Shown: positions 4,401 through 37,638, counted from the stretch's first letter. The stretch is DNA of 64,000 nt from an uncultured Gammaproteobacteria bacterium (GCA_963746545.1 CAVVBV010000029.1:210163-274162); one strand, 5' to 3'. The notes: generated by a model from the sequence alone, not told the origin. Translations and numbers: made by a program.

Positions 4401-4449
4401 CGCCTGTCCGGGTCCGGCTTGCGTCCCAGGCCGGTTCCCATGCACAGTC

Positions 4450-4481
4450 ACACGGCCGCCTCCGGGCGGCCGTGTCTTTTT
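4450..4481 (+). terminator. Rho-independent terminator-like hairpin after pilQ
   Basis: 11-bp GC-rich stem ACACGGCCGCC / GGCGGCCGTGT with loop TCCG, followed by CTTTTTG. Confidence 0.55.
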
Positions 4482-4491
4482 GCGGTGACCG

Positions 4492-5001
4492 ATGCTTCGG
4501 AGCGTATTCCTGGTGGGGCCGATGGGTTCGGGCAAGACCGCGGTCGGCCGGCAGCTCGCAGAGCGGCTCGGCCTTCCATTCGCGGACAGCGACGCCGAGA
4601 TCGAGGCACGCACCGGCGTCGACATCGCCTACATCTTCGAGCGCGAGGGCGAGGCCGGATTCCGGGTCCGCGAGCGCGACATGATCGATGAACTCACGCG
4701 CCGCGAGGGAATCGTGCTCGCGACCGGCGGCGGGGCGGTCCTGCTGCCCGAGAATCGCGAGCGGCTGTCCACGCGCGGCACGGTCGTGTTCCTCGACGCC
4801 ACGCTCGAGCAGCAGATGCAGCGCACGCGGCGCGGGCGCCACCGGCCGCTGCTCGCGACCGACGATCCGCGCGCGAAGCTCGAGGAGCTGATGCGCGTGC
4901 GCGATCCGCTCTACCGCTCCATCGCTGCGATCACCGTCACGACCGACGGGCGCCGGCTGGCATCGGTCGCCGACGAGATCGCCAGGATGCTTTCCGCATG
5001 A
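4492..5001 (+). CDS. aroK: Shikimate kinase
   Basis: 169 aa. P-loop GPMGSGKT at the N-terminus. Conserved pilQ-aroK-aroB synteny. Confidence 0.9.
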
Positions 5002-6086
5002 GGCGCGTGGACCTCGATCTCGGCGCGCGGCGCTGCCCGATCCTGATCGGGCCGGGCCTGCTGGGCTCGCAGGCGCTGCTCGCGGAGCACACGGGCGATG
5101 CGCAGCTGATGGTCGTCAGCAACGAGACCGTCGCGCCCCTGTGGCTGCCGCGGCTGCGCGAGGGCCTTGGCGGCCGCCCCTTCGCGCAATGCCTGCTGCC
5201 GGATGGCGAGGAGCACAAGACGCTCGCGAGCGCCGCGCGGGTCATCGACGCGCTCATCGAGGCGCGCATGAACCGCGACTGCATGGTGCTCGCGCTCGGC
5301 GGCGGCGTCATCGGCGACATCGCCGGCTTCGCCGCGGCGACCTACCAGCGCGGCGTCGCGTTCCTGCAGCTGCCGACCACGCTGCTCGCACAGGTGGATT
5401 CCGCGATCGGCGGCAAGACCGGCGTCAATCACCCGGGCGGCAAGAACCTGATCGGCGCATTTCACCAGCCCGTCGCCGTCATCACCGATACCGACACGCT
5501 TGCCACGCTTTCGGACCGGGAGTTTCGGGCAGGTCTCGCCGAGATCATCAAGGCCGCGCTGATCGCGGACAGCGGATTCTTCGACTGGCTCGAGCAGGAG
5601 ATCGAGGCGCTGCTCGCGCGCAAGGCCGGGGCGCTCGAGGAGGCGATCGGCCGCGCCTGCGAAATCAAGGCCGCGATCGTCGCCCGCGACGAGCGCGAAG
5701 CGGGCCCGCGCGCGCTGTTGAACCTCGGGCACAGCTTCGGGCACGCGATCGAAACCGGGCTGGGCCACGGCCGCTGGCTGCACGGCGAGGCGGTCGCCGC
5801 CGGCATCGTGCTCGCCGCCGAACTCTCGCAGCGCAGCGGCCGGCTGGCCGCGGGCGAGGTCGGCCGCGTGCGCGGCCTGCTGGCCCGCGCGGGCCTGCCG
5901 GTCGATCCGCCGCGGCTCGGGCGCGAACGCATGCAGGCGCTCCTCGGCATGGACAAGAAAGTCGCGGGCGGGCGGCTGCGCCTCGTGCTGCTGGATGGGA
6001 TCGGCGCGGCAACGTGCACGGCCGAGTTTCCGCAGGACGCGCTCGAGAAGCTGCTCGAGGACCGGGCCGGCACGGGCGCGGCGTGA
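4998..6086 (+). CDS. aroB: 3-dehydroquinate synthase
   Basis: 362 aa. Blocks [41 protein letters not shown] and [16 protein letters not shown] overlap with aroK. Confidence 0.9.
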
Positions 6087-12036: not shown

Positions 12037-14526
12037 ATGAGGGCCCTGCGATTTGCGATGCTCGCGCTGCTGCGCGACTGGCGATCGGGCGAGCTCGCGG
12101 TCCTGCTCGCGGCGCTCCTGGTCGCGGTCACGGCGCTGACCGGCGTCGGCTTCTTCACCGACCGCATCGGCCAGGCGGTCGAGCTGCGGGCCGCGGAAGT
12201 GCTGGCGGCGGACCTCAAGCTCCAGTCCACCGAGCCGCTCGATCCGGCGTACGTGAAGCTCGCAGGCGAACGCGGCATCGCGACGGCCGCCACCGTTTCC
12301 TTCCCGAGCGTCGTGTTCTTCGGCGACGACTCCACGCTGATCTCGCTGCGCGCTTCGGGGCCCGGCTACCCCTTGCGCGGACGCCTGAAGATCTCGGATG
12401 CACCGTTCGCGCCGGCGCGCGAGACCTCGGACCTCCCGGGGCACGGCGAGGCCTGGCTCGACTCCCGCCTGCTCGCGCGGCTCGGCGCGCGGGTCGGCGA
12501 TCGAGTCAGCGTCGGTTCGACGGCCTTCCAGGTGACGCAGGTTCTGGACTACCGGCCGGACCAGGGATCGGCGTTCGTCGATCTCGCGCCATCGCTCCTG
12601 ATCAATCTCGCGGACCTGGGCGATACCGGGTTGCTCGGCCCGGGCAGCCGCGTGACTTACTCCCTGCTCTTCGCCGGTGCGCCCGCAGCGATTCGCGACT
12701 TCAAGACTGCGCTTGCGGAACGACGCAAGCCGGGCGAGCGGCTGGTGGATATCGAGGAGGCGAGTCCGCAGATCCGTTCTTCCACCGAGCGCGCTGGACG
12801 ATTCCTCAATCTCTCGGCGCTGATCACGGTGCTGCTCGCCGCGATCGCGGTCGCGATGGCTGCGCGGCGCTACACGCAGCGGCATCTCGACCATGTCGCA
12901 GTGATGAAATGCCTGGGCGCGCCGCAGTCGCTGGTCCTGCAGCTTACGGTGATCGAGCTCGGCCTCCTGGCGCTGATCGCGACGGCCGTGGGCAGCGCGC
13001 TCGGGTTCCTCGCACAGGAAGTCCTCGCCTGGCTCCTGGGCGGCATCGTGCGCGCGGACCTGCCGCCTCCGACGGTGGCGCCGGTGGTCATGGGCGCGGT
13101 GACGTCGCTTGCGATCCTGGTCGGATTCGCGATGCCACCGATGCTGCAGCTGAAGCGCGTGCCGCCGGCACGGGTGCTGCGCCGCAATCTCGAGCCGCCG
13201 CCGCTGCGCTATTCCGTGTCCTATGGGCTCGCGCTCGGCGCGCTGCTGGCCGTGCTGTACTGGCTGGTGCGCGATGGCTGGCTCGTGCTTTACGTCGCGC
13301 TCGGTGTCGGCGGCACGCTCGCCGTGCTGTCCGGCGCCGGATGGCTGCTGGTGCGCCTGGCCGGGCGCATGCGTGGGGCGGTCGGCGTCGCCTGGCGTTA
13401 TGGCCTCGCGAATCTCGCGCGCCGCGGTCGCGAGAGCATCGTGCAGGTGGTCGCCTTCGGGCTCAGCCTGATGGTGCTGCTGCTGCTCGCGGTCGTGCGC
13501 AAGGACCTGCTCGATGACTGGCGGGCCAGTCTCCCGGCTGACACACCGAACTACTTCATGGTCAACATCCCGACGGCCGACACCGGGGCATTTGCGGATT
13601 TCGTCAACGGGCAGGGCCTCCCGCGCCCGACGCTGTTCCCGATGATTCGCGCGCGCCTGACGGAAGTGAACGGCAAGCCCGTGGACAAGCGGGGGCTGCA
13701 GACCGATCGCGCGCAGGCCTTCGCCGAGCGCGAGCAGAACCTGTCCTGGGCGGAAAAACTGCAGAAGGACAACCGCCTCGTCGAGGGACGCTGGTGGACG
13801 GAGGCCGATCGCGGCCGGAAGCTCGTCTCGGTCACGACGGAGTACCAGGAAGACCTCGCGCTCAGGCTCGGCGACCGGCTGACATTCGACATCGCAGGCG
13901 AGGCGCTCACCGCCGAGATATCGAGCTTCCGCAAGGTCCAGTGGGACACGTTCCAGCCGAATTTCTTCCTGGTGTTCTCGCCCGGCACGCTGGATGGACT
14001 GGTCGGCACCTGGCTCACCGCCATGAAGCTGAAACCGGAGCAACGGCCGCTGCTCGCCGACCTCGTGCACCGCTTCCCTTCGGTGTCGATCTTCGACATC
14101 GATTCGATCCTCGCCCAGATCCGCGACATCATGGATCGCGCATCGCTCGCTGTTCAGTACGTGTTCCTGTTCACGCTCGCGGCCGGCATCACCGTGCTGC
14201 TCGCCGCGATCCAGTCGACGCGCGACGAACGCCGCTACGAGAGCGCGATGCTGCGCACGCTGGGCGCAAGCCGGCGCGTCGTGCTCGCCGGCGTCGCGTC
14301 GGAATTCACCGCGCTCGGCATGCTGTCGGGAACGCTCGCGGCGCTCGGCGCAACGCTCGCCGCCTGGCTGCTCGCGGAGAAGGTCTTCGACCTCAAATAC
14401 ACGCTCGATCCCTGGGTCTGGGTGATCGGGCTTGCGGCTGGGGCCATAATCGTCGGCGGCGCGGGCACCTTCGCCGCACGCGGCGTCATCAATCAACCGC
14501 CGATCAGCACCTTGCGGCAGGCTTGA
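12037..14526 (+). CDS. ABC transporter permease, FtsX-like, duplicated (YbbP-like)
   Basis: 829 aa. Two FtsX-type TM bundles separated by large periplasmic domains. Directly downstream of the ATPase. Confidence 0.8.
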   Translation: MRALRFAMLALLRDWRSGELAVLLAALLVAVTALTGVGFFTDRIGQAVELRAAEVLAADLKLQSTEPLDPAYVKLAGERGIATAATVSFPSVVFFGDDSTLISLRASGPGYPLRGRLKISDAPFAPARETSDLPGHGEAWLDSRLLARLGARVGDRVSVGSTAFQVTQVLDYRPDQGSAFVDLAPSLLINLADLGDTGLLGPGSRVTYSLLFAGAPAAIRDFKTALAERRKPGERLVDIEEASPQIRSSTERAGRFLNLSALITVLLAAIAVAMAARRYTQRHLDHVAVMKCLGAPQSLVLQLTVIELGLLALIATAVGSALGFLAQEVLAWLLGGIVRADLPPPTVAPVVMGAVTSLAILVGFAMPPMLQLKRVPPARVLRRNLEPPPLRYSVSYGLALGALLAVLYWLVRDGWLVLYVALGVGGTLAVLSGAGWLLVRLAGRMRGAVGVAWRYGLANLARRGRESIVQVVAFGLSLMVLLLLAVVRKDLLDDWRASLPADTPNYFMVNIPTADTGAFADFVNGQGLPRPTLFPMIRARLTEVNGKPVDKRGLQTDRAQAFAEREQNLSWAEKLQKDNRLVEGRWWTEADRGRKLVSVTTEYQEDLALRLGDRLTFDIAGEALTAEISSFRKVQWDTFQPNFFLVFSPGTLDGLVGTWLTAMKLKPEQRPLLADLVHRFPSVSIFDIDSILAQIRDIMDRASLAVQYVFLFTLAAGITVLLAAIQSTRDERRYESAMLRTLGASRRVVLAGVASEFTALGMLSGTLAALGATLAAWLLAEKVFDLKYTLDPWVWVIGLAAGAIIVGGAGTFAARGVINQPPISTLRQA

Positions 14527-14598
14527 GCGGCGGTCTGTTCGCGCCCGCATCCTGCGAGATCGACAGGCCGCGGCAGATATCGTAGGGTTCTGGCACCC

Positions 14599-15276
14599 AT
14601 GATGGAGCCCTACATCCGCAACCTGTTTGCCGATCCGGAGATGCTGCGCATGGGTCATGGGCAGCGTCCTGCCGACCTCAATCTGGGCCTGGGCTGGATC
14701 TACTATGCCCTCGGTCGGGTCATCCGCCCGGCGCGGGCCGTCGTCATAGGTTCCTACCGCGGCTTCGTACCCAGCGTGATTGCCAGGGCGCTGCTCGACA
14801 ACAGCGAGGGTGGCGAAGTCTGTTTCATCGACCCGTCGCTCGCCGATGATTTCTGGAAACTGCCGGCGAGCGTCGCCGGGACATTCCAGCGTCTCGGCAC
14901 GCCAAATGTCCGGCATCACCTGCTGACCACCCAGGAGTTTGTGGCAACCGAGGCCTATGCCGGGCTTGCCGATGTTGGGCTCGTCATGATCGACGGGTAT
15001 CATTCCGCGGAACAGGCGCGCTTCGATTACCTGGCCTTTATCGACAAGCTGAGTGCCGACGCGGTCGTGCTTTTTCACGACAGCACCGCGCGGCGGTCGA
15101 GTTCCTTTTACGGCGAAGAAAACAGGTATGAACATACTGTCTGCCTGCTGATGGAACGGCTGAAGGTGACGCCAGGACTCGAGGTGCTGACCTTGCCAAT
15201 TGCCAGCGGGCTGACGCTGGTCAGTGGCAGGCCCGGGTCCCTCCAGCGGATCAACGAGCCGTTCGGCGACGCGTGA
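14599..15276 (+). CDS. Class I SAM-methyltransferase-fold protein (Methyltransf_24/CmcI-like), function unknown
   Basis: 225 aa. Rossmann-like blocks VVIGSYRGFVPSVIA, EVCFIDPS, MIDGYHSAEQARFDY and VVLFHDS. The family assignment is by eye only. Confidence 0.5.
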   Translation: MMEPYIRNLFADPEMLRMGHGQRPADLNLGLGWIYYALGRVIRPARAVVIGSYRGFVPSVIARALLDNSEGGEVCFIDPSLADDFWKLPASVAGTFQRLGTPNVRHHLLTTQEFVATEAYAGLADVGLVMIDGYHSAEQARFDYLAFIDKLSADAVVLFHDSTARRSSSFYGEENRYEHTVCLLMERLKVTPGLEVLTLPIASGLTLVSGRPGSLQRINEPFGDA

Positions 15277-16469
15277 CAACCGAAACGGCAATGCAGTTCA
15301 AGTCAGGGGAAAGCGGACCCCGGTTCGCGCGCGTGCTGCCCGGCTGGGACCGGCGCGAGCCGCGTAGTCCGCCGCACTTGATCGGGGTCCTGCCGGGCGA
15401 GGGCATCGGACCTGAGATCGTTGCAGCGAGCCTGTCGCTGCTCGGAACCATCGAGTCCGCGTCCGACCACCGCTTTGAAATCCGCAGGGGCGGCAAGATT
15501 GGGCTCGAGGCGCAACAGGCCTCGGGCCAGTTCCTCACGCAGGACGTCATCGGCTTTTGTGAAGAAATCTTCGCCGGACATGGCGCCGTGTTTTGCGGAC
15601 CGGGCGGCGGGCGCTTTGTCTACGATCTGCGCCGCCGATTCGATCTGTACTGCAAGATGACGCCGCTACAGCCGTTCACGGCCCTGCGCGACACCGGAGC
15701 GCTGCGCCCGGCGGCGGTCGAAGGGGCCGACATCCTGATCATCCGCGAGAATGTCAGCGGCCTGTATCACGGCAAGTCGGGATTCGAGCCGCATGGCGGG
15801 CAGCGGCGCGCGTTCCAGAATTTTCATTACGATGAGAGCGAGGTGACGCGCATTCTCGCGATCGCGCGCGATGTCGCAGGGCTGCGCCGCAGGCGCTTGT
15901 GCGTCGTCACCAAGCCCGGAGGCGCGCCCGCGATCAGCCAGCTCTGGCAGGAGCGGGCGGAGCGCTTGATGGACGGGGCGGATATCGACGTGAAGCTGCT
16001 GAATGTGGACACGGCCTGCTATCAACTGGTCGCCGACGCCAGGAATTTCGACGTGGTCGTGGCGCCCAACATGTTCGGCGACGTGCTCGCAGATGTCGCG
16101 ACACTGCTCCTCGGTTCGCGCGGCATGTCCAGTTCGGCGAATTTCGGCGATGGCGGCCTCGCCGTCTACCAGACGGGCCATGGCGCGGCCTACGACCTCG
16201 CGGAGCGCGATCGCGCAAACCCGCTTGGCCAGGTTCTTGCGCTTGCGACGATGCTCCACGAGAGCTTCGGCCTCGAGCAACTCGGCATGCAGGTCCGCGA
16301 TGCCGTCAGCGAAACGCTGGCCAGCGGCTGGCGGACCGCGGACATCATGGCGCCGGGCTGCCGCGCTGTCGGCACGCGCGAATTGGTCGCGCAGATCGGC
16401 ATGCGGCTTCAGGAGTGTTTGCAGGACGCAGCGCCGGAGCGCGTCGCGGACCAAGCCATCGGCCGATGA
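15273..16469 (+). CDS. Isocitrate/isopropylmalate/tartrate dehydrogenase-family enzyme
   Basis: 398 aa. IGVLPGEGIGPEIV, IIRENVSGLYHG and NMFGDVLADV are family hallmark blocks. The start is either GTG 15273 (GTGA overlap with the upstream stop) or in-frame ATG 15291. Confidence 0.7.
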   Translation: MTTETAMQFKSGESGPRFARVLPGWDRREPRSPPHLIGVLPGEGIGPEIVAASLSLLGTIESASDHRFEIRRGGKIGLEAQQASGQFLTQDVIGFCEEIFAGHGAVFCGPGGGRFVYDLRRRFDLYCKMTPLQPFTALRDTGALRPAAVEGADILIIRENVSGLYHGKSGFEPHGGQRRAFQNFHYDESEVTRILAIARDVAGLRRRRLCVVTKPGGAPAISQLWQERAERLMDGADIDVKLLNVDTACYQLVADARNFDVVVAPNMFGDVLADVATLLLGSRGMSSSANFGDGGLAVYQTGHGAAYDLAERDRANPLGQVLALATMLHESFGLEQLGMQVRDAVSETLASGWRTADIMAPGCRAVGTRELVAQIGMRLQECLQDAAPERVADQAIGR

Positions 16470-18361
16470 AGCCCGCGCTGCTGTTGGTCGACCTGCAGCT
16501 CGATTTCCTGGCGCGGCCTGGACTCAATCCGGAAGCCGCCGAGCTGGTCACATGCGTAGAGGCATTACTCGCCGGCTGCCGCGCGCTGGGATTGCCGGTG
16601 CTACACGCCCACACGCGCATCCGCGCCGATGTCTCCGATCGCATGCCGCATTGGGCCCGCGCCGGCTATTCGGCCTGTGTTTTCGGCACCGCCGGCGCCC
16701 AGTCGCCGCCCGCGCTCGCGCCACTGGCGAGTGAACCGGTGTTTGCAAAACGCTTCTTCAGCGCATTCGAGAACCCGGGTCTCGAGCAGCATCTGCATTC
16801 GCTCGGGATTGACACGCTGGTCATCGCCGGCCTCTATCTGCACGGCTGCGTCCGGACGAGCGTGCTCGATGCGTACGCGGCGGGTTTCCGGGTGCTGGTC
16901 GCGACGGATGCGGTGGGCTCGACCGAGCCGCTACACGCCACGATCTCGCGCGAATACCTGGATGGACGCGCCGCCGAGTTCATGTGTTCCGAAGCGCTTC
17001 TGAAGCACCTCGCCGGTACCGATGGGCGACAGACACATCCGGCGACGTCGAAGTCCGCCGATGTTGCACAGGCAACGGCGACAGCAGCCGGCGCCTGGGC
17101 TGCGTGGCGCAATACAGGTCAGGCGACGCGCGCGGACCTGCTGCTTGGCTGGCGTGCCATCCTCGAGCAGGACTCGGAGACGCTCGCGGGCTTGCTCGCG
17201 GATGAAATCGGCAAGCCGCTCGCGGCCGGACGCGAAGAAATGCAGCGCGCGCTCGCACATATCGACACGGCAGTCCGCATCGCGTCGGAGGCGCCGGCAC
17301 TGACCGCAGGCGTGCGGGTTCGCTATCGCCCGGTCGGCTGCGTCGGGCTCATCACGCCGTGGAACAACCCGGTGGCGATTGCCGTCGGCAAGATCGCGCC
17401 GGCACTCGCTTTCGGCAACACGATCGTGTGGAAGCCGTCGCCGCATGCGCCGCGCGCATCGCGGCGAGTCATGGAATCGCTGGCTGCGGCGGGCATGCCA
17501 TCGGGCTTGGTCAGCCTCGTGTCCGGCGGTGCCGAGGCGGCGCAGGCGTTGATGCGCGACCCCGCGATCGTGGCGGTTTCGATCACGGGCTCGCAGCGCA
17601 CGGGCCAGGATGCAGCCGCTCTTTGTGCGCTCTCCGGCAAGCCGCTGCAGGCGGAGCTTGGCGGGAACAATGCGATGATCGTGCTCGCTGACGTCGATGT
17701 CGAAGGCGCGGCTACTGCGCTCGCGCGTTCGGCGTTCAGCTTTGCGGGCCAGCGCTGCACGGCGGTAAGGCGTTTCATCGTCGAGGCGTCGATCGCCGCG
17801 AGATTCGAGCGGGTGCTCGCATCCGCCACGCGCGCCCTCCGAATAGGCGACCCGCGCCGCGACGATATCGACGTGGGCCCGCTGATCTCGGCGGAACATT
17901 GCGCGCATGTCGCCGCCGTGGTTGCGCAGGCGCTCGCGGATGGCGGTCGGCTGGTCACCGGCGGCAGGGAGCCGGAAGGGCGATCCGGCGGCTGCTGGTT
18001 CGAGCCGACCCTGCTTGCCGAAGTTGGGCCCGACACCGCAATTGCACAACAGGAAACCTTCGGGCCGGTGGCCTTGATCCTTCGCGCCGCGAACCTCGAC
18101 GATGCCTTGAGCCTCGCGAATGGCGTGCCGCAGGGCCTGCTGGCGGGCCTGTTGAGCGCGGACGCCGGAGCGCGGGCGCGTTTCGCCGCGGAGATTGACG
18201 CGGGTATCCTGCAGTTCGGCCCGGGCCCGTTCGCGCTGCATGCCGATGCGCCCTTCGGCGGCTGGAAGTCGTCGCGCATCGGCCCCGCGGAGCATGGGAG
18301 ATGGGACCGCGAGTTCTATGCCAGGCCGCAAGTCCAGTACGGCGAGGCTGGCGCACCGTGA
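16466..18361 (+). CDS. Fusion protein: N-terminal isochorismatase-like hydrolase plus C-terminal aldehyde dehydrogenase
   Basis: 631 aa from ATG 16466 (ATGA overlap). The N-terminal ~190 aa has LLLVDLQLDF, ...FAKRFFSAF... and VIAGLYLHGCVRTS (Asp-Lys-Cys triad pattern). The C-terminal ~430 aa has ITPWNNP, ELGGNNAMIV and FSFAGQRCTAV (ALDH Glu/Cys). Confidence 0.7.
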   Translation: MKPALLLVDLQLDFLARPGLNPEAAELVTCVEALLAGCRALGLPVLHAHTRIRADVSDRMPHWARAGYSACVFGTAGAQSPPALAPLASEPVFAKRFFSAFENPGLEQHLHSLGIDTLVIAGLYLHGCVRTSVLDAYAAGFRVLVATDAVGSTEPLHATISREYLDGRAAEFMCSEALLKHLAGTDGRQTHPATSKSADVAQATATAAGAWAAWRNTGQATRADLLLGWRAILEQDSETLAGLLADEIGKPLAAGREEMQRALAHIDTAVRIASEAPALTAGVRVRYRPVGCVGLITPWNNPVAIAVGKIAPALAFGNTIVWKPSPHAPRASRRVMESLAAAGMPSGLVSLVSGGAEAAQALMRDPAIVAVSITGSQRTGQDAAALCALSGKPLQAELGGNNAMIVLADVDVEGAATALARSAFSFAGQRCTAVRRFIVEASIAARFERVLASATRALRIGDPRRDDIDVGPLISAEHCAHVAAVVAQALADGGRLVTGGREPEGRSGGCWFEPTLLAEVGPDTAIAQQETFGPVALILRAANLDDALSLANGVPQGLLAGLLSADAGARARFAAEIDAGILQFGPGPFALHADAPFGGWKSSRIGPAEHGRWDREFYARPQVQYGEAGAP

Positions 18362-19590
18362 ATGAAGAACAGCAGATATTCCTGACACGCGTCGGACCCG
18401 GCACGCCGATGGGAGCACTGCTCCGTCGCTACTGGTTTCCCGTGGGCGTCACCAGCGACATGGCAGCGGGCAGCGCCCGCGCGACGCGACTGCTGGGACA
18501 GGATCTGGTGCTGTTTCGTACCACGACCGGCGCGCTCGGGCTCCTCGATCGGGCGTGCCGGCACCGCGGCGCCGGACTTCACTGCGGCCATGTGGACGAC
18601 GAAGGCATTGCCTGCCCATACCACGGCTGGAAATTCGCGAGCGACGGGCGCTGCCTGCGAATGCCGGCCGAGCCACGCAATGCCGGGCTGCTCGACCGGG
18701 CGAGAACCCAGGCCTATCCGGTCGAGGAACTGGGCGGGCTGATCTTCGGTTACCTCGGGCCCCAGCCCGCGCCACTACTGCCGCGCTACGACCTGTTCGT
18801 GTGGAGCGGCGTCCTGCGCGACATCGGCCGCGCTCTGCTCCCCTGCAACTGGCTGCAAATCATGGAGAACAGTGTCGACCCGACGCATGTGGAATGGCTG
18901 CACGGCCATCACCTGGGCCAGGTGCGTGCCGCGGAGGGCCTCGATCCGCCGCAGCACTACCGCCTTCACCATACGAAGATCGGATTCGACGTCTTTCCGT
19001 ACGGCATCATCAAGCGCCGCGTGGTCGAGGGCGGCAGCGAGGCCGATGACGACTGGCGCATCGGGCACCCGCTGATCTTTCCATGCATGCTGCGCGTCGG
19101 CGCGCGCGGACAACACCGGTTCCAGATCCGGGTTCCCGTGGACGACACGACTACGATGCATTACTGGTATTCCTGCTATCGGCCGCGGCCGGGCGTGACC
19201 GTGTCGCCGCAGCCCGTGATCCCGGTGTACGAAGTTCCCTGGCGGGATGGCAAGGGAAATTTCATCGTCGACTTCGTGGATGGCGGCGACATCATGACCT
19301 GGGTCACGCAGGGACCGATTGCCGATCGCACCCGAGAGCTGCTGGTGAAGTCCGACAAGGGGCTGGTGATGCTGCGACAGCTCCTGAGCGAGCAGGTCGA
19401 CCGGGTCGCGCGCGGCCTGGATCCTCTCGGCGTCCTGCGCGATCCCGCAAGCAATGCGCTGATCGAGTTTGCGCAGGAGCACGACAAGCTGGGCGACGGT
19501 CGTTCATTCCTGCGCGAGTCCATTGCGATGAGTCATGTCCGCCATAGCCCGATCAGGGACCAGATCATCGAGCTGCTGGAACGCGATTGA
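18358..19590 (+). CDS. Rieske [2Fe-2S] non-haem iron oxygenase, alpha-subunit type
   Basis: Rieske motif CRHRG...CPYHGW and an iron motif region DPTHVEWLHGHH. The start is proposed at GTG 18358 (GTGA overlap). Track ORF start 18301 would overlap the upstream gene by 61 nt. Confidence 0.75.
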   Translation: MNEEQQIFLTRVGPGTPMGALLRRYWFPVGVTSDMAAGSARATRLLGQDLVLFRTTTGALGLLDRACRHRGAGLHCGHVDDEGIACPYHGWKFASDGRCLRMPAEPRNAGLLDRARTQAYPVEELGGLIFGYLGPQPAPLLPRYDLFVWSGVLRDIGRALLPCNWLQIMENSVDPTHVEWLHGHHLGQVRAAEGLDPPQHYRLHHTKIGFDVFPYGIIKRRVVEGGSEADDDWRIGHPLIFPCMLRVGARGQHRFQIRVPVDDTTTMHYWYSCYRPRPGVTVSPQPVIPVYEVPWRDGKGNFIVDFVDGGDIMTWVTQGPIADRTRELLVKSDKGLVMLRQLLSEQVDRVARGLDPLGVLRDPASNALIEFAQEHDKLGDGRSFLRESIAMSHVRHSPIRDQIIELLERD

Positions 19591-20783
19591 ACACCGCCCG
19601 CCCGCGCGGCCAGCGGCTGCGCATCCTGCTGCATTCGCAACACCTCACGGGTGTCGGGCATTTCGTGCGCATGCGCGAAATCGCGCGCTCGCTCGTTTCC
19701 CGGCATGACGTGTACATGGTCGATGGCGGCCGCCCCGTGCCGGGTGCCGACGCGGGCGGCGCGACTCCGGTCGAGGTGCCGCGGATCATCCGCGAGGCAG
19801 GCCGTCTCGTTCCGCTGGCGGGCGAATCCGGTATCGCCGCCACGCTGACGGAACGTCGCAGGATCCTGTGCGAAGCGATCACCCGGTTACGCCCTGATGT
19901 GCTGATCGTCGAGCACTACCCGTTCAGCAAGTGGGAGCTGCAGGACGAGATCGAGGCGGCGATCGCAGCGACACGCGTTGCGAATGCCCACGCCGTGGTC
20001 CTGTGCTCGGTGCGCGACATCGTGCGCCAGACCCGCCATGAATCGTGCACCGGGGCGGACTACGTCCTGCGCGTGCTCGGCTCGCTGCACGCCGGCTTCG
20101 ACGCGCTGCTGGTTCACGGCGATCCGGCACTGACGCGTCTCGAAGAACATTTCCCCGGCGTCGGCGAAATCCGGATCCCGGTCGAATACACGGGCATCGT
20201 TTCGCAGCCGCTCCGGCCGGAGCAGCGCGATGCGCGGACGATCGAACAGCTCACCAACGGCGCACCGTTCGTGCTGGCGAGTGCGGGCGGCGGCCCCGAT
20301 GCGCAGGGATTGCTGGTGCAGTGCGTGCTCGCGTGGCAGCTGCTCGTCGCGCAGGGCGCGCTGCCAGGATGGAGGCTCGTGATCTGCTCGGGGCTGGCTT
20401 CGCCTTCCGGCGAATTGCGCGAACTTGCGTCCGCCGAGGGCGCGGGCAGCATCGTCGTCCAGCCCTTCAGCGCCGACTACCTGGCCTGGCTGGAGATGGC
20501 GCAATTGTCGGTGAGCTGCGCGGGCTACAACACCTGCGCGAACCTGCTGCAGCTGCGCTGCCGTGCGTTGCTGGTGCCGGACCCGCAGATGTCCGATCAG
20601 CCGGAGCGCGCGCGCATCCTGGCGGCACGCGGCATCGCATCGGTGCTGGACCCACGGGAGCTGGACGGGAGGACGCTTGCCGATGCGATCCACAGGGCAC
20701 TCGCGTCCTCGCCGACGCCGCACGACATTGCAATGAATGGCGCCGCACGCACCCGCGACATCATCGAACGTCTCGCGGGCTGA
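19587..20783 (+). CDS. Glycosyltransferase-like protein (GT-B fold, COG4671/GT28-like)
   Basis: 398 aa. N-terminal RILLHSQHLTGVGHFVRMREIA resembles the predicted-glycosyltransferase family with an HD/HS-x-GLGH motif. TTG start overlaps the upstream stop (TTGA). Confidence 0.55.
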   Translation: MNTARPRGQRLRILLHSQHLTGVGHFVRMREIARSLVSRHDVYMVDGGRPVPGADAGGATPVEVPRIIREAGRLVPLAGESGIAATLTERRRILCEAITRLRPDVLIVEHYPFSKWELQDEIEAAIAATRVANAHAVVLCSVRDIVRQTRHESCTGADYVLRVLGSLHAGFDALLVHGDPALTRLEEHFPGVGEIRIPVEYTGIVSQPLRPEQRDARTIEQLTNGAPFVLASAGGGPDAQGLLVQCVLAWQLLVAQGALPGWRLVICSGLASPSGELRELASAEGAGSIVVQPFSADYLAWLEMAQLSVSCAGYNTCANLLQLRCRALLVPDPQMSDQPERARILAARGIASVLDPRELDGRTLADAIHRALASSPTPHDIAMNGAARTRDIIERLAG

Positions 20784-20800
20784 TGGACGGGCGGGCGCAC

Positions 20801-22180
20801 TTACCCGGGCAACAGCGACAGGAATTCCTCGAACTTGCCGGTCGGTCCGCGCGCGATCGCTTCCACGGCAACGACATTCACCCGATACAGAAAGCCGAGC
20901 GTCTCGCGGACGACGTCTATTGCCTGCTGCGTTTCCGCGACCGTCAACGGCCGATCAAGAACGACGCGTAGCTCGATTGCATCGGGCGCCGTCTGCACCC
21001 ATTGCGCCTGGCGGACCACGCTGACTGCGCGGATCTTGTAGAGGGTGATGGGGTAGTAGCGCTGACCGTCGGGACTCAGGGCCATGTTCTTTACGCGGCC
21101 CAGCACCTGGCGTATTACCGGCGACGCGCGGCCGCAGCCGCAGGGCTCACCGACCGTTGCGTAATCGCCGATCTGGTAGCGTATCAACGGCGTCGCGAGG
21201 TTGTGCAGGGGCGTCAGCACGACTTGGCCGGATTCCCCGGGCGCGCAACGCTCGCGCCGCTCGTTCAGGATCTCGACGAAGATCCCCTCAGACTGCACAT
21301 GCAGGCTCCCGTGTTCGCGGCAACGAAATGCGATCTGGCCGTTTTCATTGGAGGTGTACATGTCCGATACACGCACGCCCCATGCGGCGGTAATGCGGGA
21401 TTCGAACTCGGTATCGACCGGCTCCGAGATGAGCCGGATTTCTTCGAGCGCCGGCGTCTTTCCACCCGGGCCTAGTGCGCCGAAAAGCTCCGCCGCGACA
21501 CTAGGGTAAGTCAACAGGTAGTGCGGATCGAAGCGGCGCAGCCACTCGATCAGCAGCTCTACCGGCAGTTTGACATGCGCGACGGCTGCCGGCCCTGTGC
21601 GATAGAGGTCCGCAACCGGTGGGCCCCAGATGCCTTCTTGTCGATGCCTTGCTGAATGCCAGTCGGCCGGCTTGAAGGAGCGGATGACACCCAGCCGTTT
21701 CGAGAAATCGCGTCGTTGCCAGAGGTGCTCGCGCACGCCGAGCGCGTCCCAGATCATGCGCGTGACCGCCGTCGTACGAATCTCCACCGGAATGCCGGTG
21801 GACCCCGAGGTGCGCACTGCTGCGAGCGGCAGGTGCGGATGTGGCACCACCGACGCGTTGAGTGCGGGACCCTCGCTGTGAAGCGTTGCCTTCGCCAGCA
21901 AGGGCAATTGCAGCCACTGCTCCTCGAAGCGCTCCGGCGACCGACGCAGGATCTTGAGGGCCGCCTTCAGCGAGCCCGTCCTCAGGTAGTACGGCACATT
22001 GTTGGCGGCCCATTCGAGCAGCAGGATCAGCTGCGATTGCGTGCCGGCAGCAAGCTCAGCCGCTGACCACCGCTGCGATTCTTCCAGTCCGCGCACCACG
22101 TCCTGCAGCCTGGCGGGAGGAGTCGCGAGAAACGGAGGCCACGACAGGAACGGAGAGAGCGGCGGCAGCGGGCGCGTCAT
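20801..22180 (-). CDS. PaaK / coenzyme F390 synthetase-like adenylate-forming enzyme
   Basis: 459 aa. TSGSTGIPVEI adenylation motif and YQIGDY...GRVKN blocks typical of the phenylacetate-CoA ligase / CapK family. Confidence 0.65.
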   Translation of the reverse strand: MTRPLPPLSPFLSWPPFLATPPARLQDVVRGLEESQRWSAAELAAGTQSQLILLLEWAANNVPYYLRTGSLKAALKILRRSPERFEEQWLQLPLLAKATLHSEGPALNASVVPHPHLPLAAVRTSGSTGIPVEIRTTAVTRMIWDALGVREHLWQRRDFSKRLGVIRSFKPADWHSARHRQEGIWGPPVADLYRTGPAAVAHVKLPVELLIEWLRRFDPHYLLTYPSVAAELFGALGPGGKTPALEEIRLISEPVDTEFESRITAAWGVRVSDMYTSNENGQIAFRCREHGSLHVQSEGIFVEILNERRERCAPGESGQVVLTPLHNLATPLIRYQIGDYATVGEPCGCGRASPVIRQVLGRVKNMALSPDGQRYYPITLYKIRAVSVVRQAQWVQTAPDAIELRVVLDRPLTVAETQQAIDVVRETLGFLYRVNVVAVEAIARGPTGKFEEFLSLLPG

Positions 22181-22230
22181 CCCATGATTCTATCCGTGCC
22201 CGCGACGCGCCACCCGTCAACGACGGCGTC

Positions 22231-22737
22231 TCATTTCCCCGCGATGCTCAATCGCGATTCCGCGTACTTCTCAAGCTCCCCGCGCCGCGTGTAGCCCTCG
22301 ACGCGCAGGCGATAGATCCCGTTCGGCAGCATCGACGTGTTGAATCCGAGGTGCAGCTCGCCGTTGGAGTCGAGCGCGAGGCGTTCGGCGTGCAGCAGCG
22401 CCGTGCCGTCGTCGCGCGACAGCGCAATGCGGTAGCGGTCGAAACGATCGCTGGTCACGGCGATCGCGAGGTCGACGCGGGTGGCGAAGCCGCCGGCGTC
22501 GATGCCGGTCAGGCGGCCGGCACGCGGATCGACGTGGACCGTCCGGGTCGAGGAGGGTGGCTGCAGGAAGCCGACCGCGGCCTGGGCCTGCATCATCGTC
22601 ATGCGATCCAGGGCGACATTCCAGCGCCAGGCGGTCCAGATGAGCGCCACGACCAGGACGAAGATCAGGATCGCGCCCCCTGCCAGGACCTGCGGTTTCT
22701 GGTACCTGGCCATCCATTCGGGATATTCGATTTCCAT
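22231..22737 (-). CDS. Membrane-anchored hypothetical protein
   Basis: 168 aa from MEIEYPEW. One TM helix (GGAILIFVLVVALIWTAW) and a beta-rich C-terminal domain. Only this 3' part of track ORF 22231..23649 looks protein-like. Co-directional with the PaaK-like gene. Confidence 0.45.
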   Translation of the reverse strand: MEIEYPEWMARYQKPQVLAGGAILIFVLVVALIWTAWRWNVALDRMTMMQAQAAVGFLQPPSSTRTVHVDPRAGRLTGIDAGGFATRVDLAIAVTSDRFDRYRIALSRDDGTALLHAERLALDSNGELHLGFNTSMLPNGIYRLRVEGYTRRGELEKYAESRLSIAGK

Positions 22738-22799
22738 TGACCCAACTCCGTGGCCCGCTGCGTTTATTCTATGCGTCCAGAGACCGAGGAGAGCCCGAC

Positions 22800-24331
22800 A
22801 TGACTTCGTTGTCTGCCCGAGTTCACATTTTGCTGGCCGGCAGCCTGATCGCCGCCTGCGCCCTGGCGGCCGAGCCCCAGACGGCGCTGACCGTCTACAG
22901 TTCCGCGCAACCGGGCGGCATCCCGGCCGAGTGGTATCGCCCGCTGCCCGGCATGGGCACGCCGCAGGCGAGTTCCCTGCCCGGATTCGCGCTGGTGCGC
23001 GTGGACCGGGATCTCGACCTCGACGCGCGGACGGAGCAAGTTGCAGTTCACGGACGTCGCCGCGCTGATCGACCCGACGACCGTGCAGTTCCGTTCGCTG
23101 ACCGATCCCAACGGCACGAAGGTGCTGGAGCAGAATTTCCAGTTCGACCTGGTCAGCACCGAGAAGCTGCTGTCGCGCTACGTGGACCGCAAGGTCAGCG
23201 TCGAGAGCCAGCAGGGCGACGGCGTCAAGCTGACCGAAGGCACGCTGCTCTCGGCGAATGACGGGCTGGTGCTGCGCGGCGACGACGGCCAGATCCATGC
23301 GCTGCGCAACTGGAGCGGCATGCAGTTCGGCGAACTGCCGGGCGGGCTGATCACGCGGCCGACGCTCGAATGGGACATCCTCGCCGCGAAGGCCGGCACG
23401 CATCGCGCGCGCGTCTCGTACCAGACCGGCGGCATCACCTGGTGGGCGGACTACAACCTGGTTTTCACCGAAGGCGCGGACGCGAATTCCGGCTTCGTGG
23501 ACGTGGGCGCCTGGGTGAGCCTGCTGAACCAGTCCGGCGCGAGTTACCAGGACGCGAAGCTCAAGCTGATCGCGGGCGACGTCAATCGCGTGCAGCCGGG
23601 CACGGGAGGCATCATGCCGGCGGCACAGCGCGCGAAAGGTCTTCGACATGGCCGCGGATGCCCCCGGCTTCGAGGAGAAATCCTTCTTCGAATATCACCT
23701 GTACACGCTGGGCCGGCCCGCGACGCTTCCCAACAACTCGACCAAGCAGATCGAGCTCTTCGACGCGGCAACGCGGGTGCCGGCGAAGAAGCAGCTCGTG
23801 TACTACGGCGCGGAGGGTTATGGCTTCTACGGCGACCTGGTACTCGACCGGGATTTCGGCCCGACCTCCAACACGAAAGTGGACGTGTGGCTCACGCTCA
23901 AGAACGACAAGGCCTCGGGCCTCGGCATGCCGTTGCCTGCCGGGCGCATCCGCGTCTCGCAGCAGGACAAGGCCGACGGCAGCATGGAGTTCATCGGCGA
24001 GGACAAGATCGACCACACGCCCAAGGACGAGGACGTGCGGGTCAAGCTCGGCACGGCCTTCGACGTGGTCGGCGAGCGCCGCCAGACCGATTTCGCGCTG
24101 AACTCGAAAGGCCGCGTCATGGAAGAGGCCTTCGAGATCAAGGTCCGCAACCACAAGGACCAGGCGGTCGACGTGGTCGTGCGCGAGAACCTCTATCGCT
24201 GGAGCAAGTGGACATTGATCCAGCAGTCCACGCCATCCGAGAAGAAGGACGCGCGCACCATCGAGTTCCCGGTGCGGATCGCGCCGGACGGCGAGGCGAT
24301 CGTCACCTACCGGGTGCGTTACACCTGGTGA
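22800..24331 (+). pseudogene. DUF4139-family secreted protein interrupted by two +1 frameshifts
   Basis: Three collinear pieces lie in three frames. (1) Signal peptide MTSLSARVHILLAGSLIAACALA... to ~23028. (2) ...LQFTDVAALIDPTTVQFRSL... to ~23635. (3) ...FFEYHLYTLGRPATLPNNSTKQIELF...VTYRVRYTW to 24331. Confidence 0.6.
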
Positions 24332-36373: not shown

Positions 36374-36606
36374 GGGGTGGCCTTGCCCAGGCCGCGGCGA
36401 ATGTGACGAATGCCGTGTTCGGCATCCGCGGCGGCGGCGCCGATGCCGCTTCCGACCCCGGTGATGAGGATGTTGCGTTCTTGCAAGACGCCCCCTGCGC
36501 TTGACAGTAACGCCCGGTGAACCGGGCGGCCTCATACGTTAGTACTATTCACGCGGTACTACTCGATGGCCGACAGTTCGCTGCAGACTCGCCTGGGGAT
36601 CCTGAA

Positions 36607-37636: not shown

Positions 37637-37638
37637 GG

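What the first reader, a model, noticed from the sequence alone, without database searches (positions are those of the whole stretch)
14599..20783. Five translationally coupled genes of unassigned chemistry (methyltransferase fold, IDH-like, isochorismatase-ALDH, Rieske oxygenase, glycosyltransferase-like)
Every junction in this block is a 4-nt start/stop overlap: GTGA at 15273, ATGA at 16466, GTGA at 18358 and TTGA at 19587. That arrangement implies stoichiometric co-expression. The enzyme set comprises a beta-decarboxylating dehydrogenase, an amidohydrolase-type isochorismatase domain, an aldehyde dehydrogenase, a ring- or C-H-hydroxylating Rieske oxygenase, a GT-B glycosyltransferase and a SAM-fold protein. 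I cannot match this set to any pathway I know. It looks like tailoring or biosynthesis of a small glycosylated metabolite, or catabolism of an unusual substrate. By eye the first gene uses more A/T-ending codons than the flanking core genes, which hints at horizontal acquisition.
Basis: partly seen in the sequence, partly recalled or inferred. Interest (0 to 1): 0.6.

Follow-up and report, generated by a model that had tools for sequence, protein, structure and literature searches.

The report
Acquired six-gene orphan biosynthetic cassette
A tightly packed, horizontally acquired six-gene cassette, built around an enzyme pair found in over 300 bacterial species but never characterised, most likely makes and decorates a small sugar-bearing organic acid whose identity is still unknown.

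Summary
The five genes, their domains and the four NTGA junctions are present as described. The first junction is doubtful, because the IDH-like gene more likely starts at ATG 15291.

The real unit has six genes (about 14527-22230). It also includes the convergent PaaK/F390-like adenylating gene. Five same-genus genomes have an empty site in which ybbP abuts p168. One related MAG carries the same island at the same site.

The conserved core is the IDH-like gene followed directly by the cysteine-amidase-ALDH fusion. This pair occurs in 317 species genomes across more than ten phyla. The two genes overlap by NTGA in 43 of 69 loci and are sometimes fused into one protein. Accessory genes vary:
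- Rieske with GT, forming one clade that includes this window
- a HemN-like radical SAM enzyme
- MT24
- A-PCP-TE or PaaK-like ligases
- PhyH-like oxygenases

Structure models place the GT among GT1 natural-product glycosyltransferases and MT24 among metal-dependent catechol O-methyltransferases. The IDH-like enzyme keeps its catalytic residues but lacks the LeuB substrate loop.

No characterised pathway matched in NCBIfam, PDB, PADLOC, Rfam or four paper searches. My best reading is biosynthesis and tailoring of a glycosylated small acid, substrate unknown. The scan had already seen the core pair in another genome (e1-1501497). Codon usage is not anomalous genome-wide.

The parts
14527..22230 (.). 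Acquired island: six genes inserted between the stop of ybbP (14526) and the stop of the convergent 168-aa gene p168 (22231)
   Evidence: In five same-genus genomes (G019, G021, G010, G003, G018) ybbP is followed within 6-15 bp by p168, then DUF4139, MOSC and CHAT, with none of the six genes. The related MAG locus L009 carries the same six genes at the same site. The fusion gene was not found in 24 same-genus and 16 same-order genomes.
14599..15276 (+). MT24: 225-aa class I SAM-dependent methyltransferase with a cation-dependent catechol-O-methyltransferase-like fold
   Evidence: PF13578, 3e-14. The AlphaFold model has pLDDT 87. The best PDB folds are SafC, CCoAOMT, norbelladine 4'-OMT and TrmR, at probability 1.0 and TM about 0.64. 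Invariant residues G51, S52, R54, G55, D78, D132, H135, H160 and D161 appear in the 8-sequence alignment. Orthologues occur next to the core pair in 7 loci and in Alkalilimnicola ehrlichii.
15273..16469 (+). IDH/IPMDH-like beta-decarboxylating dehydrogenase. The start is either GTG 15273 or, more likely, ATG 15291.
   Evidence: PF00180, 7.5e-64. It scores 212 bits against TIGR00169 leuB, whose cut-off is 353. The alignment to IPMDH structures 3u1h and 1a05 keeps R94, R132, Y139, K185, D217, D241 and D245. It shows a 9-residue deletion of the R-P-E substrate loop and puts Thr at R104.
16466..18361 (+). 631-aa fusion. The N-terminal part is a cysteine hydrolase (isochorismatase fold, residues 4-176, about 16475-16993). 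The C-terminal part is an aldehyde dehydrogenase (residues 192-620, about 17039-18325).
   Evidence: PF00857, 2.8e-34, and PF00171, 3e-120. D9, K95 and C128 of the hydrolase triad are invariant across 23 homologues, as are N300, E397 and C431 of the ALDH. The nearest solved hydrolases are N-carbamoylsarcosine amidase, maleamate amidohydrolase and biuret hydrolase types. The ALDH domain is about equally distant from many semialdehyde dehydrogenases.
18358..19590 (+). 410-aa Rieske non-haem-iron oxygenase alpha subunit of the phthalate-dioxygenase/LigXa/VanA family. No reductase gene lies in the island.
   Evidence: PF00355, PF19301 and PF19112. The best solved relative is phthalate dioxygenase 7fjl, 2.7e-49. 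The CxH...CxxH and N-W-x4-E-N-x2-D-x2-H-x4-H motifs are present in the alignment. Orthologues share 60-91% identity across phyla and are mostly 410 aa.
19587..20783 (+). 398-aa GT-B glycosyltransferase, GT1-like (natural-product type), from a small dedicated family
   Evidence: PF04101, 8e-10. There is no sequence hit in the PDB. The AlphaFold model has pLDDT 92.4. Foldseek's top hits are CalG1, OleD, GtfD, SpnP and the kitacinnamycin GT, at probability 1.0 and TM about 0.6. Only 368 homologues reach E<=1e-10. The N-terminal QHLxGxGHxxR motif is conserved, with H25 in at least 90% of sequences. In 12 of 13 full-flank loci the GT comes with the Rieske gene, lying just after it where both are on one strand.
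20801..22180 (-). 459-aa PaaK/F390-synthetase-like adenylating ligase, convergent on the operon and part of the island
   Evidence: Its best NCBIfam hits are the DVU_1553-family ligase (5e-24), FlxY, BagE/FevW and PaaK, all below cut-off. The best PDB hits are PaaK-like ligase 6siw (4e-16), AjiA1 and PaaK. It is missing from the empty sites together with the five genes. Orthologues at 48-80% identity lie beside the same cassette in L009, L010/L013 and L015.

Best explanation
This is a self-contained, horizontally acquired six-gene cassette for making and tailoring a small carboxylic acid that ends up glycosylated. It belongs to a widespread but uncharacterised family.

What is shown:
- The island's boundaries.
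- The intact catalytic residues of the enzymes.
- The conserved pairing and coupling of the IDH-like and fusion genes.
- The fold classes of the GT and MT24.

What I infer about the steps:
1. The invariant core works as one unit. The amidase and ALDH domains of the fusion protein each unmask a carboxylate. One converts a carboxamide, the other an aldehyde.
2. The product is a 2-hydroxy polycarboxylate of the substituted-malate type.
3. The IDH-like enzyme oxidises and beta-decarboxylates this intermediate to a 2-oxo acid. It has the full LeuB/IDH catalytic set but a remodelled, more open substrate pocket.
4. The PaaK-like ligase activates a carboxylate of that acid as an acyl-adenylate, for transfer to CoA or another acceptor.
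5. The phthalate-family Rieske oxygenase introduces a hydroxyl. It must borrow a host reductase to do so.
6. The catechol-OMT-like MT24 methylates one hydroxyl, and the GT1-like enzyme attaches a sugar from a common NDP-sugar.

The order of steps and the identity of the acid are not established. An aromatic or dicarboxylic acid is favoured.
For: Island and acquisition:
- Five same-genus genomes show the empty site.
- The same island sits at the same site in L009.
- The fusion was not found in 40 related genomes.

Conserved core:
- The fusion protein occurs in 317 species genomes across Proteobacteria, Planctomycetota, Gemmatimonadota, Verrucomicrobiota, Acidobacteriota, Nitrospirota, Cyanobacteria, Actinobacteria and Desulfobacterota, among others.
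- In nearly every locus with enough sequence, the IDH-like gene lies immediately upstream.
- The two genes overlap by NTGA in 43 of 69 loci.
- Triple IDH-hydrolase-ALDH fusion proteins exist.

Intact catalysis:
- The hydrolase triad and the ALDH Cys/Glu/Asn are invariant.
- The IDH-like catalytic Tyr, Lys and Asp residues are kept, but the substrate loop is deleted.
- The Rieske and mononuclear-iron motifs are present.

An anabolic, small-molecule flavour:
- The GT model matches natural-product GT1 enzymes.
- The MT24 model matches catechol OMTs such as SafC and CCoAOMT.
- The ligase matches PaaK-like ligases and AjiA1.
- In other genomes the partners of the core are A-PCP-TE or A-PCP enzymes, PaaK-like ligases, PhyH-like oxygenases, a HemN-like radical SAM enzyme, ABC exporters, an Amidohydro_2 decarboxylase-type enzyme and an extra Methyltransf_3 OMT.
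- 32 of 54 full-flank loci have an adenylating enzyme within 4.5 kb.
- The adjacent A domains never have Asp at position 235 and mostly have Lys or Arg at position 299. This points to a non-amino, anionic acid substrate.

Subfamily: fusion proteins linked to Rieske and GT genes form essentially one clade, which contains the window's copy.
Against: - No substrate, product or intermediate is known. No enzyme of this family has been assayed.
- Every family in the cassette except the GT and MT24 is also common in aromatic-acid catabolism.
- There are no sugar-nucleotide genes, no transporter, no regulator and no Rieske reductase in the island.
- In Alkalilimnicola ehrlichii, and in the Smithella/Syntrophaceae MAGs, relatives of the cassette sit among glycan-type genes: GT1 and GT2 genes, CTP_transf_3, a PglK/MsbA-like exporter and an epimerase. 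The acceptor could therefore be a surface glycan rather than a free metabolite.
- Rieske-type loci and adenylating-enzyme loci overlap in only 5 of 54 cases. The window's combination is therefore not the commonest architecture.
- The Foldseek TM-scores are only about 0.6.
- The A-domain code rests on my alignment to a remembered GrsA fragment.
Confidence: 0.5

Rival explanations
1. The cassette is catabolic or detoxifying. It takes an aromatic amide, aldehyde or acid from the environment and hydrolyses or oxidises it to the acid. It then hydroxylates or O-demethylates it with the Rieske enzyme, activates it with the PaaK-like ligase and funnels it into central metabolism. Methylation and glycosylation would serve to detoxify.
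For: - The Rieske enzyme's closest relatives are phthalate dioxygenase, LigXa and VanA.
- The ALDH scores similarly to muconic-semialdehyde, phenylacetaldehyde and succinic-semialdehyde dehydrogenases.
- The hydrolase domain resembles maleamate, carbamoylsarcosine and biuret amidases.
- PaaK-like ligases start aerobic aromatic catabolism.
- Some relatives add an Amidohydro_2 (LigW/ACMSD-type) gene or a GFO/IDH/MocA (LigC-type) gene.
- An anthranilate-CoA cluster lies elsewhere in the window (note e1-3096350).
Against: - The island and the related loci contain no ring-cleavage dioxygenase, thiolase/hydratase set, transporter or regulator.
- A dedicated GT1-like glycosyltransferase and an O-methyltransferase are tailoring enzymes, not catabolic ones.
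- The core pair is repeatedly joined to A-PCP-TE enzymes, radical SAM enzymes and ABC exporters.
- The core pair also occurs in strict anaerobes without any oxygenase.
Confidence: 0.2
2. The cassette decorates a cell-surface glycan or glycolipid. The core pair makes an unusual acidic substituent, the PaaK/CapK-like ligase attaches it, and the GT adds a sugar to a lipid-linked or polymeric acceptor.
For: - In A. ehrlichii MLHE-1 the five genes lie between GT1, three GT2 genes, a CTP_transf_3 cytidylyltransferase and a PglK/MsbA/HepA-like ABC exporter.
- In the Smithella/Syntrophaceae MAGs the core pair is followed by an NAD-dependent epimerase and a strong CTP_transf_3 match.
- The GT's Pfam hit is to the MurG-type C-terminal domain, and MurG appears among the Foldseek hits.
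Against: - The window's island, and the same island in L009, carry no glycan-assembly genes. The island sits between ybbP and an unrelated core gene.
- CTP_transf_3 and epimerase neighbours are confined to a few loci.
- The top 48 Foldseek hits for the GT are small-molecule GT1 enzymes, and MurG comes only at rank 49.
- Many loci carry NRPS-like A-PCP-TE partners instead.
Confidence: 0.17
3. The enzymes modify a ribosomal peptide (RiPP). For example, the IDH-like enzyme would act on a beta-hydroxy-aspartate residue, and the GT, MT and Rieske enzymes would tailor the peptide.
For: - In A. ehrlichii a 53-aa ORF with repeated GAKVG(D/G)KV units lies directly upstream in the same orientation, together with an aKG-HExxH peptide beta-hydroxylase (TIGR04267, 9e-35).
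- HprK-like, NTP_transf_5 and APH kinase genes and ABC exporters accompany the cassette in several Haliea and deltaproteobacterial MAGs.
Against: - The peptide and the HExxH gene were found in no other locus and not in this genome.
- The window's island has no small ORF partner, protease or leader-recognition gene.
- The core pair occurs in most loci without any such genes.
Confidence: 0.05

Closest known systems
3-isopropylmalate / homoisocitrate / isocitrate dehydrogenases (LeuB family, PF00180), including their secondary-metabolism copies such as homophenylalanine HphB (from my own knowledge)
   Same: Same fold. The catalytic Arg, Tyr and Lys residues and the three metal-binding Asp residues are kept. 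The expected chemistry is NAD(P)+-dependent oxidation of a 2-hydroxy acid followed by beta-decarboxylation to a 2-oxo acid.
   Different: - It scores 212 bits against the leuB cut-off of 353.
- The nine-residue R-P-E substrate loop is deleted, and R104 is replaced.
- No LeuA- or LeuCD-type partner is present.
- It is always paired with an amidase-ALDH fusion instead.
Isochorismatase-fold cysteine amidohydrolases (N-carbamoylsarcosine amidase, maleamate amidohydrolase NicF, biuret hydrolase, RutB, nicotinamidase)
   Same: The Asp-Lys-Cys triad is invariant. These are the nearest solved relatives.
   Different: - It is fused to a full aldehyde dehydrogenase.
- No known member has this architecture under a curated name.
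- Sequence similarity is modest, at 1e-12 to 1e-20.
- Extra invariant residues (H47, M60, H62) have no assigned role.
Natural-product tailoring sets combining an oxygenase, a catechol-type O-methyltransferase and a GT1 glycosyltransferase (for example the CalG, OleD and GtfD glycosyltransferases and the SafC O-methyltransferase)
   Same: The predicted folds of the GT and MT24 match these enzymes best. The GT has the N-terminal G-x-G-H motif.
   Different: - Sequence identity is only 13-20%.
- The GT family is small and tied to this cassette.
- There is no polyketide or peptide scaffold gene in the island.
- The oxygenase is a Rieske enzyme, not a P450 or a flavoenzyme.
Phthalate-family Rieske oxygenases (phthalate 4,5-dioxygenase, LigXa, VanA)
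   Same: It has the Rieske and mononuclear-iron motifs and a LigXa_C/VanA_C catalytic domain. Phthalate dioxygenase 7fjl is the best solved match, at 2.7e-49.
   Different: - It is only remotely related to them; the HMMER alignment to 7fjl is shown.
- No reductase gene is adjacent.
- It sits in an operon with a GT and an OMT rather than with catabolic genes.
- Orthologues are unusually conserved across phyla, at 60-91%.
The NRPS-like A-PCP-TE operon with the same core pair noted earlier in this scan (e1-1501497)
   Same: It has the same IDH-like plus amidase-ALDH core. I recovered such loci here, with A-PCP-TE genes of 840-990 aa directly downstream, and found no Asp235 in their A domains.
   Different: - In this window the partner is a PaaK-like ligase plus Rieske, GT and MT24, not an A-PCP-TE.
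- The core pair is not confined to Acidobacteriota, as the 317 species from many phyla show.

Membership tests
3-isopropylmalate dehydrogenase LeuB (TIGR00169) | Score above the curated equivalog cut-off (353.2 bits) | tested here: not met
   It scores 212.7 and 211.5 bits.
3-isopropylmalate dehydrogenase LeuB (TIGR00169) | The catalytic and metal-binding residues of beta-decarboxylating dehydrogenases (R94, R132, Y139, K185, D217, D241, D245 in T. thermophilus numbering, which I give from memory) | tested here: met
   The alignment to 3u1h and 1a05 shows lrR, iRE..glY, vtK, nvD and fGDvlaD matched to the IPMDH motifs. These positions are at least 90% conserved in 73 family members.
3-isopropylmalate dehydrogenase LeuB (TIGR00169) | The loop that recognises the isopropyl group (R-P-E...L-L), and R104 | tested here: not met
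   A nine-residue gap falls opposite 'qnpselrpe'. F-V-Y stands opposite G-L-L, and Thr stands opposite the Arg of LRP.
Isochorismatase proper (EntB/PhzD type, vinyl-ether hydrolase) | Absence of the nucleophilic Cys (from my own knowledge), and linkage to chorismate-pathway genes | tested here: not met
   C128 is invariant together with D9 and K95. No chorismate-utilising gene lies in the island or in related loci. The nearest structures are amidases.
Cysteine amidohydrolases of the isochorismatase fold | Asp-Lys-Cys catalytic triad | tested here: met
   D9, K95 and C128 are invariant in 23 homologues.
Aldehyde dehydrogenase superfamily (PF00171) | The catalytic Cys, the general-base Glu, the oxyanion Asn and a full-length domain | tested here: met
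   PF00171, 3e-120, covers profile positions 23-457 of 461. N300, E397 (ELGGNN) and C431 (GQRCTA) are invariant. No NCBIfam equivalog cut-off is reached, so the substrate class stays unassigned.
Rieske non-haem-iron oxygenase, phthalate family | The CxH-x17-CxxH cluster ligands and the D/E-x3-D-x2-H-x4-H iron motif | tested here: met
   CRHRGAGLHCGHVDDEGIACPYHGW and NWLQIMENSVDPTHVEWLH appear in the alignment to 7fjl.
Rieske non-haem-iron oxygenase, phthalate family | A dedicated reductase or ferredoxin partner | tested here: not met
   There is none among the six island genes or in the flanks. I did not look for a partner elsewhere in the genome.
GT1-type GT-B glycosyltransferases | Two-Rossmann-domain GT-B fold with an N-terminal catalytic His motif | tested here: met
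   The model has pLDDT 92. Foldseek gives probability 1.0 to CalG1, OleD and GtfD. The GxGH motif is present, with H25 in at least 90% of sequences. Donor and acceptor cannot be tested with these tools.
Cation-dependent catechol O-methyltransferases (Methyltransf_3/24 clan) | COMT-like Rossmann fold with a glycine-rich SAM motif | tested here: met
   Foldseek matches SafC, CCoAOMT and norbelladine OMT at probability 1.0. The IGSYRGF motif is invariant.
Cation-dependent catechol O-methyltransferases (Methyltransf_3/24 clan) | The Asp/Asp/Asn metal-binding triad | tested here: inconclusive
   D132, H135, H160 and D161 are invariant. I did not superpose them on the metal ligands of a solved OMT.
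PaaK / coenzyme F390 synthetase-like adenylating ligases | Sequence membership in a curated family | tested here: inconclusive
   The best NCBIfam hits fall well below their cut-offs: DVU_1553 family 85 bits against 300, FlxY 78 against 520, PaaK 34 against 646. It has no Pfam hit. Its PDB hits to PaaK-like ligases reach 4e-16 over residues 226-435.
Known anti-phage defence systems (PADLOC) | Any component model hit | tested here: not met
   No hit for any of the seven proteins.

The most novel reading that the evidence does not exclude
The IDH-like enzyme plus the amidase-ALDH fusion may form a previously unrecognised three-activity module. It would manufacture one specific 2-oxo (di)carboxylic acid building block. 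Bacteria of more than ten phyla would then feed that block into different downstream chemistries: NRPS-like A-PCP-TE enzymes, PaaK-like ligases, or a Rieske/GT/radical-SAM branch. On this reading the window's island encodes one member of an unknown, widely distributed class of glycosylated metabolites.
Probability: 0.4. Interest if true: 0.7.

Novelty: new variant of a known kind. Interest (0 to 1): 0.5.

Why it matters
If the reading is right, a compact six-gene cassette that is easy to clone gives access to an uncharacterised metabolite family.

The core enzyme pair is spread over at least 317 species genomes of soil, sediment, groundwater and saline bacteria. It has no assayed member and no curated family name.

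The conserved coupling of the two genes, and their occasional fusion into one protein, argue for consecutive or channelled reactions. That makes the pair a good target for discovering new enzymology in three very well studied superfamilies.

The clean empty-site comparison also offers natural with-and-without strains for comparative metabolomics. If the reading is wrong, this is an ordinary accessory catabolic island.

Tried and rejected
- Literature: four full-text searches combining the enzyme names, 'fusion', 'gene cluster', 'HemN-like', 'adenylation' and similar terms returned only unrelated proteomics and genome papers.
- Curated families: NCBIfam gave no equivalog for any of the six proteins. 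PADLOC gave nothing.
- Riboswitch or leader: Rfam at E<=1 over 14000-23000 gave only one chance-level hit inside a gene. The promoter and terminator scans were at background level.
- Composition as evidence of transfer:
  - The local GC3 contrast is real.
  - A first genome-wide control was contaminated by wrong-frame ORFs.
  - The cleaned control shows that the island is not anomalous.
- LeuB replacement:
  - The genome has no canonical leuB, and the island's gene is the only LeuB-like hit.
  - However, most same-genus genomes also lack leuB, and leuC here is fragmented.
  - The island's gene also lacks the substrate loop. I rejected this idea.
- RiPP link: the precursor-like ORF and the HExxH hydroxylase of A. 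ehrlichii occur in no other locus.
- Ulosonic-acid or CMP-sugar link: CTP_transf_3 and epimerase neighbours are limited to one clade plus A. ehrlichii.
- Mobility signatures: no repeats, tRNA or integrase are evident at the island's edges.

Full report
**Observation.** The window is GC-rich (about 68%) and lies on contig C29 of a 3.29-Mb, 94%-complete genome.
- Pfam confirms each domain assignment: Methyltransf_24, Iso_dh, Isochorismatase plus Aldedh in one 631-aa protein, Rieske with LigXa_C/VanA_C, and Glyco_tran_28_C.
- The four NTGA overlaps are in the sequence exactly where stated.
- The Rieske start at GTG 18358 fits the 410-aa length of most orthologues.
- The three downstream overlaps recur in the related locus L009.
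- The first junction is less safe. An ATG at 15291 is conserved in L009, while the five codons between the GTG and that ATG are not. The ATG also gives the typical N-terminal length. MT24 and the IDH-like gene are therefore probably separated by 14 nt.

**The unit is a six-gene island.**
- Upstream lie tesA (on the - strand), ybbA and ybbP. Downstream, convergent and 17 nt away, is a PaaK/F390-like ligase (20801-22180), then a 168-aa gene (p168), a DUF4139 gene, and MOSC and CHAT genes.
- In five same-genus genomes the stop of ybbP is followed within 6-15 bp by the stop of p168. DUF4139, MOSC and CHAT follow in the same order. None of the six genes is present.
- A metagenome-assembled relative (L009, 76-91% protein identity) carries all six genes at the same site.
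- The fusion gene was not found in 24 same-genus genomes (53-98% complete) or in 16 same-order genomes.
- The acquired segment is therefore about 14527-22230 and includes the ligase.
- G019 lacks the island, yet its flanking proteins are closer to the window's than those of L009 are. The history therefore involves either a later precise loss or exchange within the genus. I could not tell which.
- Composition does not carry the argument. GC3 of the six genes is 0.765-0.835, against 0.857-0.916 for eight neighbouring genes. The genome-wide distribution is 0.823 +/- 0.057, so the island genes fall at the 17th-54th percentile. A first control was flawed.

**A conserved core with variable accessories.**
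- The fusion protein has thousands of metagenomic relatives. The top 120 all have both domains, and several carry an Iso_dh domain as well.
- A scan of one genome per species found 317 genomes encoding it, at 37-54% identity. Their phyla include Proteobacteria, Planctomycetota, Gemmatimonadota, Verrucomicrobiota, Acidobacteriota, Nitrospirota, Cyanobacteria, Actinobacteria, Desulfobacterota and others. The one isolate named to species is Magnetospirillum moscoviense.
- In the 80 loci kept, the IDH-like gene lies directly upstream of the fusion gene almost without exception. The two overlap by NTGA in 43 of 69 measurable cases.
- Everything else varies. Among 54 loci with at least 4.5 kb on both sides:

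| Neighbour within 4.5 kb | Loci (of 54) |
|---|---|
| Adenylating enzyme | 32 |
| Rieske gene | 18 |
| GT (12 of these loci also hold the Rieske gene) | 13 |
| HemN-like radical SAM gene | 12 |
| PhyH-like oxygenase | 10 |
| MT24 | 7 |

- Further recurrent neighbours are HprK-like, NTP_transf_5 and APH kinase genes, ABC exporters, an Amidohydro_2 gene and an extra Methyltransf_3 gene.
- On a tree of the fusion protein, the copies linked to Rieske and GT genes form essentially one clade, which contains the window's copy.
- The full set (MT24, IDH-like, fusion, Rieske, GT), together with the PaaK-like ligase, recurs in a betaproteobacterial MAG (L010/L013) and an alphaproteobacterial MAG (L015), in unrelated contexts.
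- The five genes without that ligase recur in the cultured Alkalilimnicola ehrlichii MLHE-1.

**What the proteins look like.**
- IDH-like enzyme.
  - It is nearest to LeuB but far below the curated cut-off: 212 bits against 353.
  - Against IPMDH structures it keeps the substrate Arg residues, the Tyr/Lys pair and the three Asp metal ligands.
  - It lacks nine residues of the R-P-E loop that closes on the isopropyl group, and it has Thr in place of R104.
  - The same pattern holds across the family.
  - I read this as an active beta-decarboxylating dehydrogenase with a different, probably larger or more polar, 3-substituent.
- Hydrolase domain. It has an invariant Asp-Lys-Cys triad and is nearest to carbamoylsarcosine, maleamate and biuret amidases. 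It is therefore an amidase rather than a true isochorismatase.
- ALDH domain. It has its catalytic Asn, Glu and Cys. It is equidistant from many semialdehyde dehydrogenases.
- Rieske protein. It has both metal motifs. Its best solved match is phthalate dioxygenase, 2.7e-49.
- GT. It has no sequence match in the PDB. A confident model (pLDDT 92) aligns best with GT1 natural-product glycosyltransferases (CalG1, OleD, GtfD, SpnP), with MurG only at rank 49. Its family is small, with 368 hits.
- MT24. The model (pLDDT 87) aligns best with metal-dependent catechol O-methyltransferases such as SafC and CCoAOMT.
- Ligase. It matches PaaK-like ligases and AjiA1.
- A domains next to the core in other genomes. 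They never have Asp at position 235 and mostly carry Lys or Arg at position 299. This rests on my own alignment to a remembered GrsA fragment. It suggests that the activated substrate is a non-amino acid with a second negative charge.

**Most likely mechanism (inferred, not shown).**
1. The fusion protein converts an amide and/or an aldehyde into carboxylates. This yields a substituted 2-hydroxy polycarboxylate.
2. The coupled IDH-like enzyme oxidatively decarboxylates that intermediate to a 2-oxo acid.
3. The PaaK-like ligase adenylates it.
4. The Rieske enzyme hydroxylates it, MT24 O-methylates it and the GT1-like enzyme glycosylates it.

The tight coupling of the core pair and the triple fusions support consecutive action. 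The fold matches support small-molecule tailoring. The substrate is unknown. An aromatic or dicarboxylic acid is the best guess, because the Rieske, OMT, PaaK-like and (in relatives) Amidohydro_2 families mostly act on such compounds.

**Rival readings.**
- A catabolic or detoxifying island is the main rival. Most of these families also serve aromatic degradation. Against it: there is no ring-cleavage enzyme, transporter or regulator; a dedicated GT and OMT are present; and relatives carry NRPS-like, radical SAM and exporter partners.
- Decoration of a surface glycan is suggested by the A. ehrlichii and Syntrophaceae contexts. Those neighbours are not general, and the window's island has none.
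- A RiPP link is suggested by a 53-aa repeat peptide and an HExxH hydroxylase in A. ehrlichii. It is not supported elsewhere.
- A role as a LeuB substitute was considered, because the genome has no canonical leuB. I rejected it.

**Comparison with what is known, and novelty.**
- No curated family, solved structure, defence model, RNA family or paper in the searchable library assigns this gene set to a pathway.
I recovered such loci, and I show that the pair is far more widespread.
- Every enzyme belongs to a well-known superfamily. This is therefore a new variant of a known kind, an orphan biosynthetic cassette, not a new kind of system.

**Limits.**
- Only 80 of the 317 loci were inspected.
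- Neighbour families were grouped by BLAST clustering with spot Pfam checks.
- No structural superposition of active sites was done.

Noticed in passing
G000 whole genome; leuC pieces at G000:C29:305861-307125 (outside the window): The genome has no canonical leuB; the island's IDH-like gene is the only LeuB-like hit. leuC appears split over several frames. Only about 3-5 of 25 same-genus genomes have leuB, and one of those copies (G007) is split. The genus may be largely auxotrophic for leucine or may be losing the pathway.
   Followed up: partly
L093 (Alkalilimnicola ehrlichii MLHE-1, CP000453) 3635-5813: A 53-aa ORF with repeated GAKVG(D/G)KV units lies directly upstream of the cassette. 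It is followed by an aKG-HExxH-type peptide beta-hydroxylase (TIGR04267, 9e-35) and an unknown 323-aa protein. This may be a RiPP locus. Neither the ORF nor the hydroxylase was seen in any other locus examined.
   Followed up: partly
L045, L064, L088, L052 (Haliea/Halioglobus and a Pseudomonadales MAG) and L030, L057, L068 (deltaproteobacterial MAGs and a Thermodesulfobacteriota MAG), flanks of the cassette: A recurring set of genes accompanies the Rieske/GT-type cassette: an HprK-related kinase, an NTP_transf_5 nucleotidyltransferase, an APH-type kinase, an ABC exporter and a HemN-like (STM4012-like) radical SAM gene. It is absent from this window's genome.
   Followed up: partly
window 22231-22737 (-) and the ORF listed as 22231-23649: The 472-aa ORF in the mechanical list is over-extended. 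The conserved gene is a 168-aa protein with no family hit. In relatives without the island it lies directly beside ybbP, so it belongs to the core genome.
   Followed up: partly
window 36001-38000: GC content drops sharply to 0.49 in an otherwise 65-72% GC window.
   Followed up: no
L047, L055, L083, L085 (Smithella/Syntrophaceae MAGs): Here the core pair is embedded in a larger conserved cluster. The cluster holds a Cu-oxidase_4 protein, an ADP-forming CoA ligase (CoA_binding/Succ_CoA_lig plus ATP-grasp_5), an A-PCP protein with a weak LpxL-like acyltransferase tail, an NAD-dependent epimerase, CTP_transf_3, an HI0933-like flavoprotein and DUF2600.
   Followed up: no
window 14599-22180 compared with 22800-24331 and 29660-34813: The six island genes read as uninterrupted open frames. 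The first-stage notes report frameshifts in neighbouring core genes (DUF4139 and the anthranilate-CoA cluster). Either the island is under selection or those breaks are assembly errors. I did not examine this.
   Followed up: no
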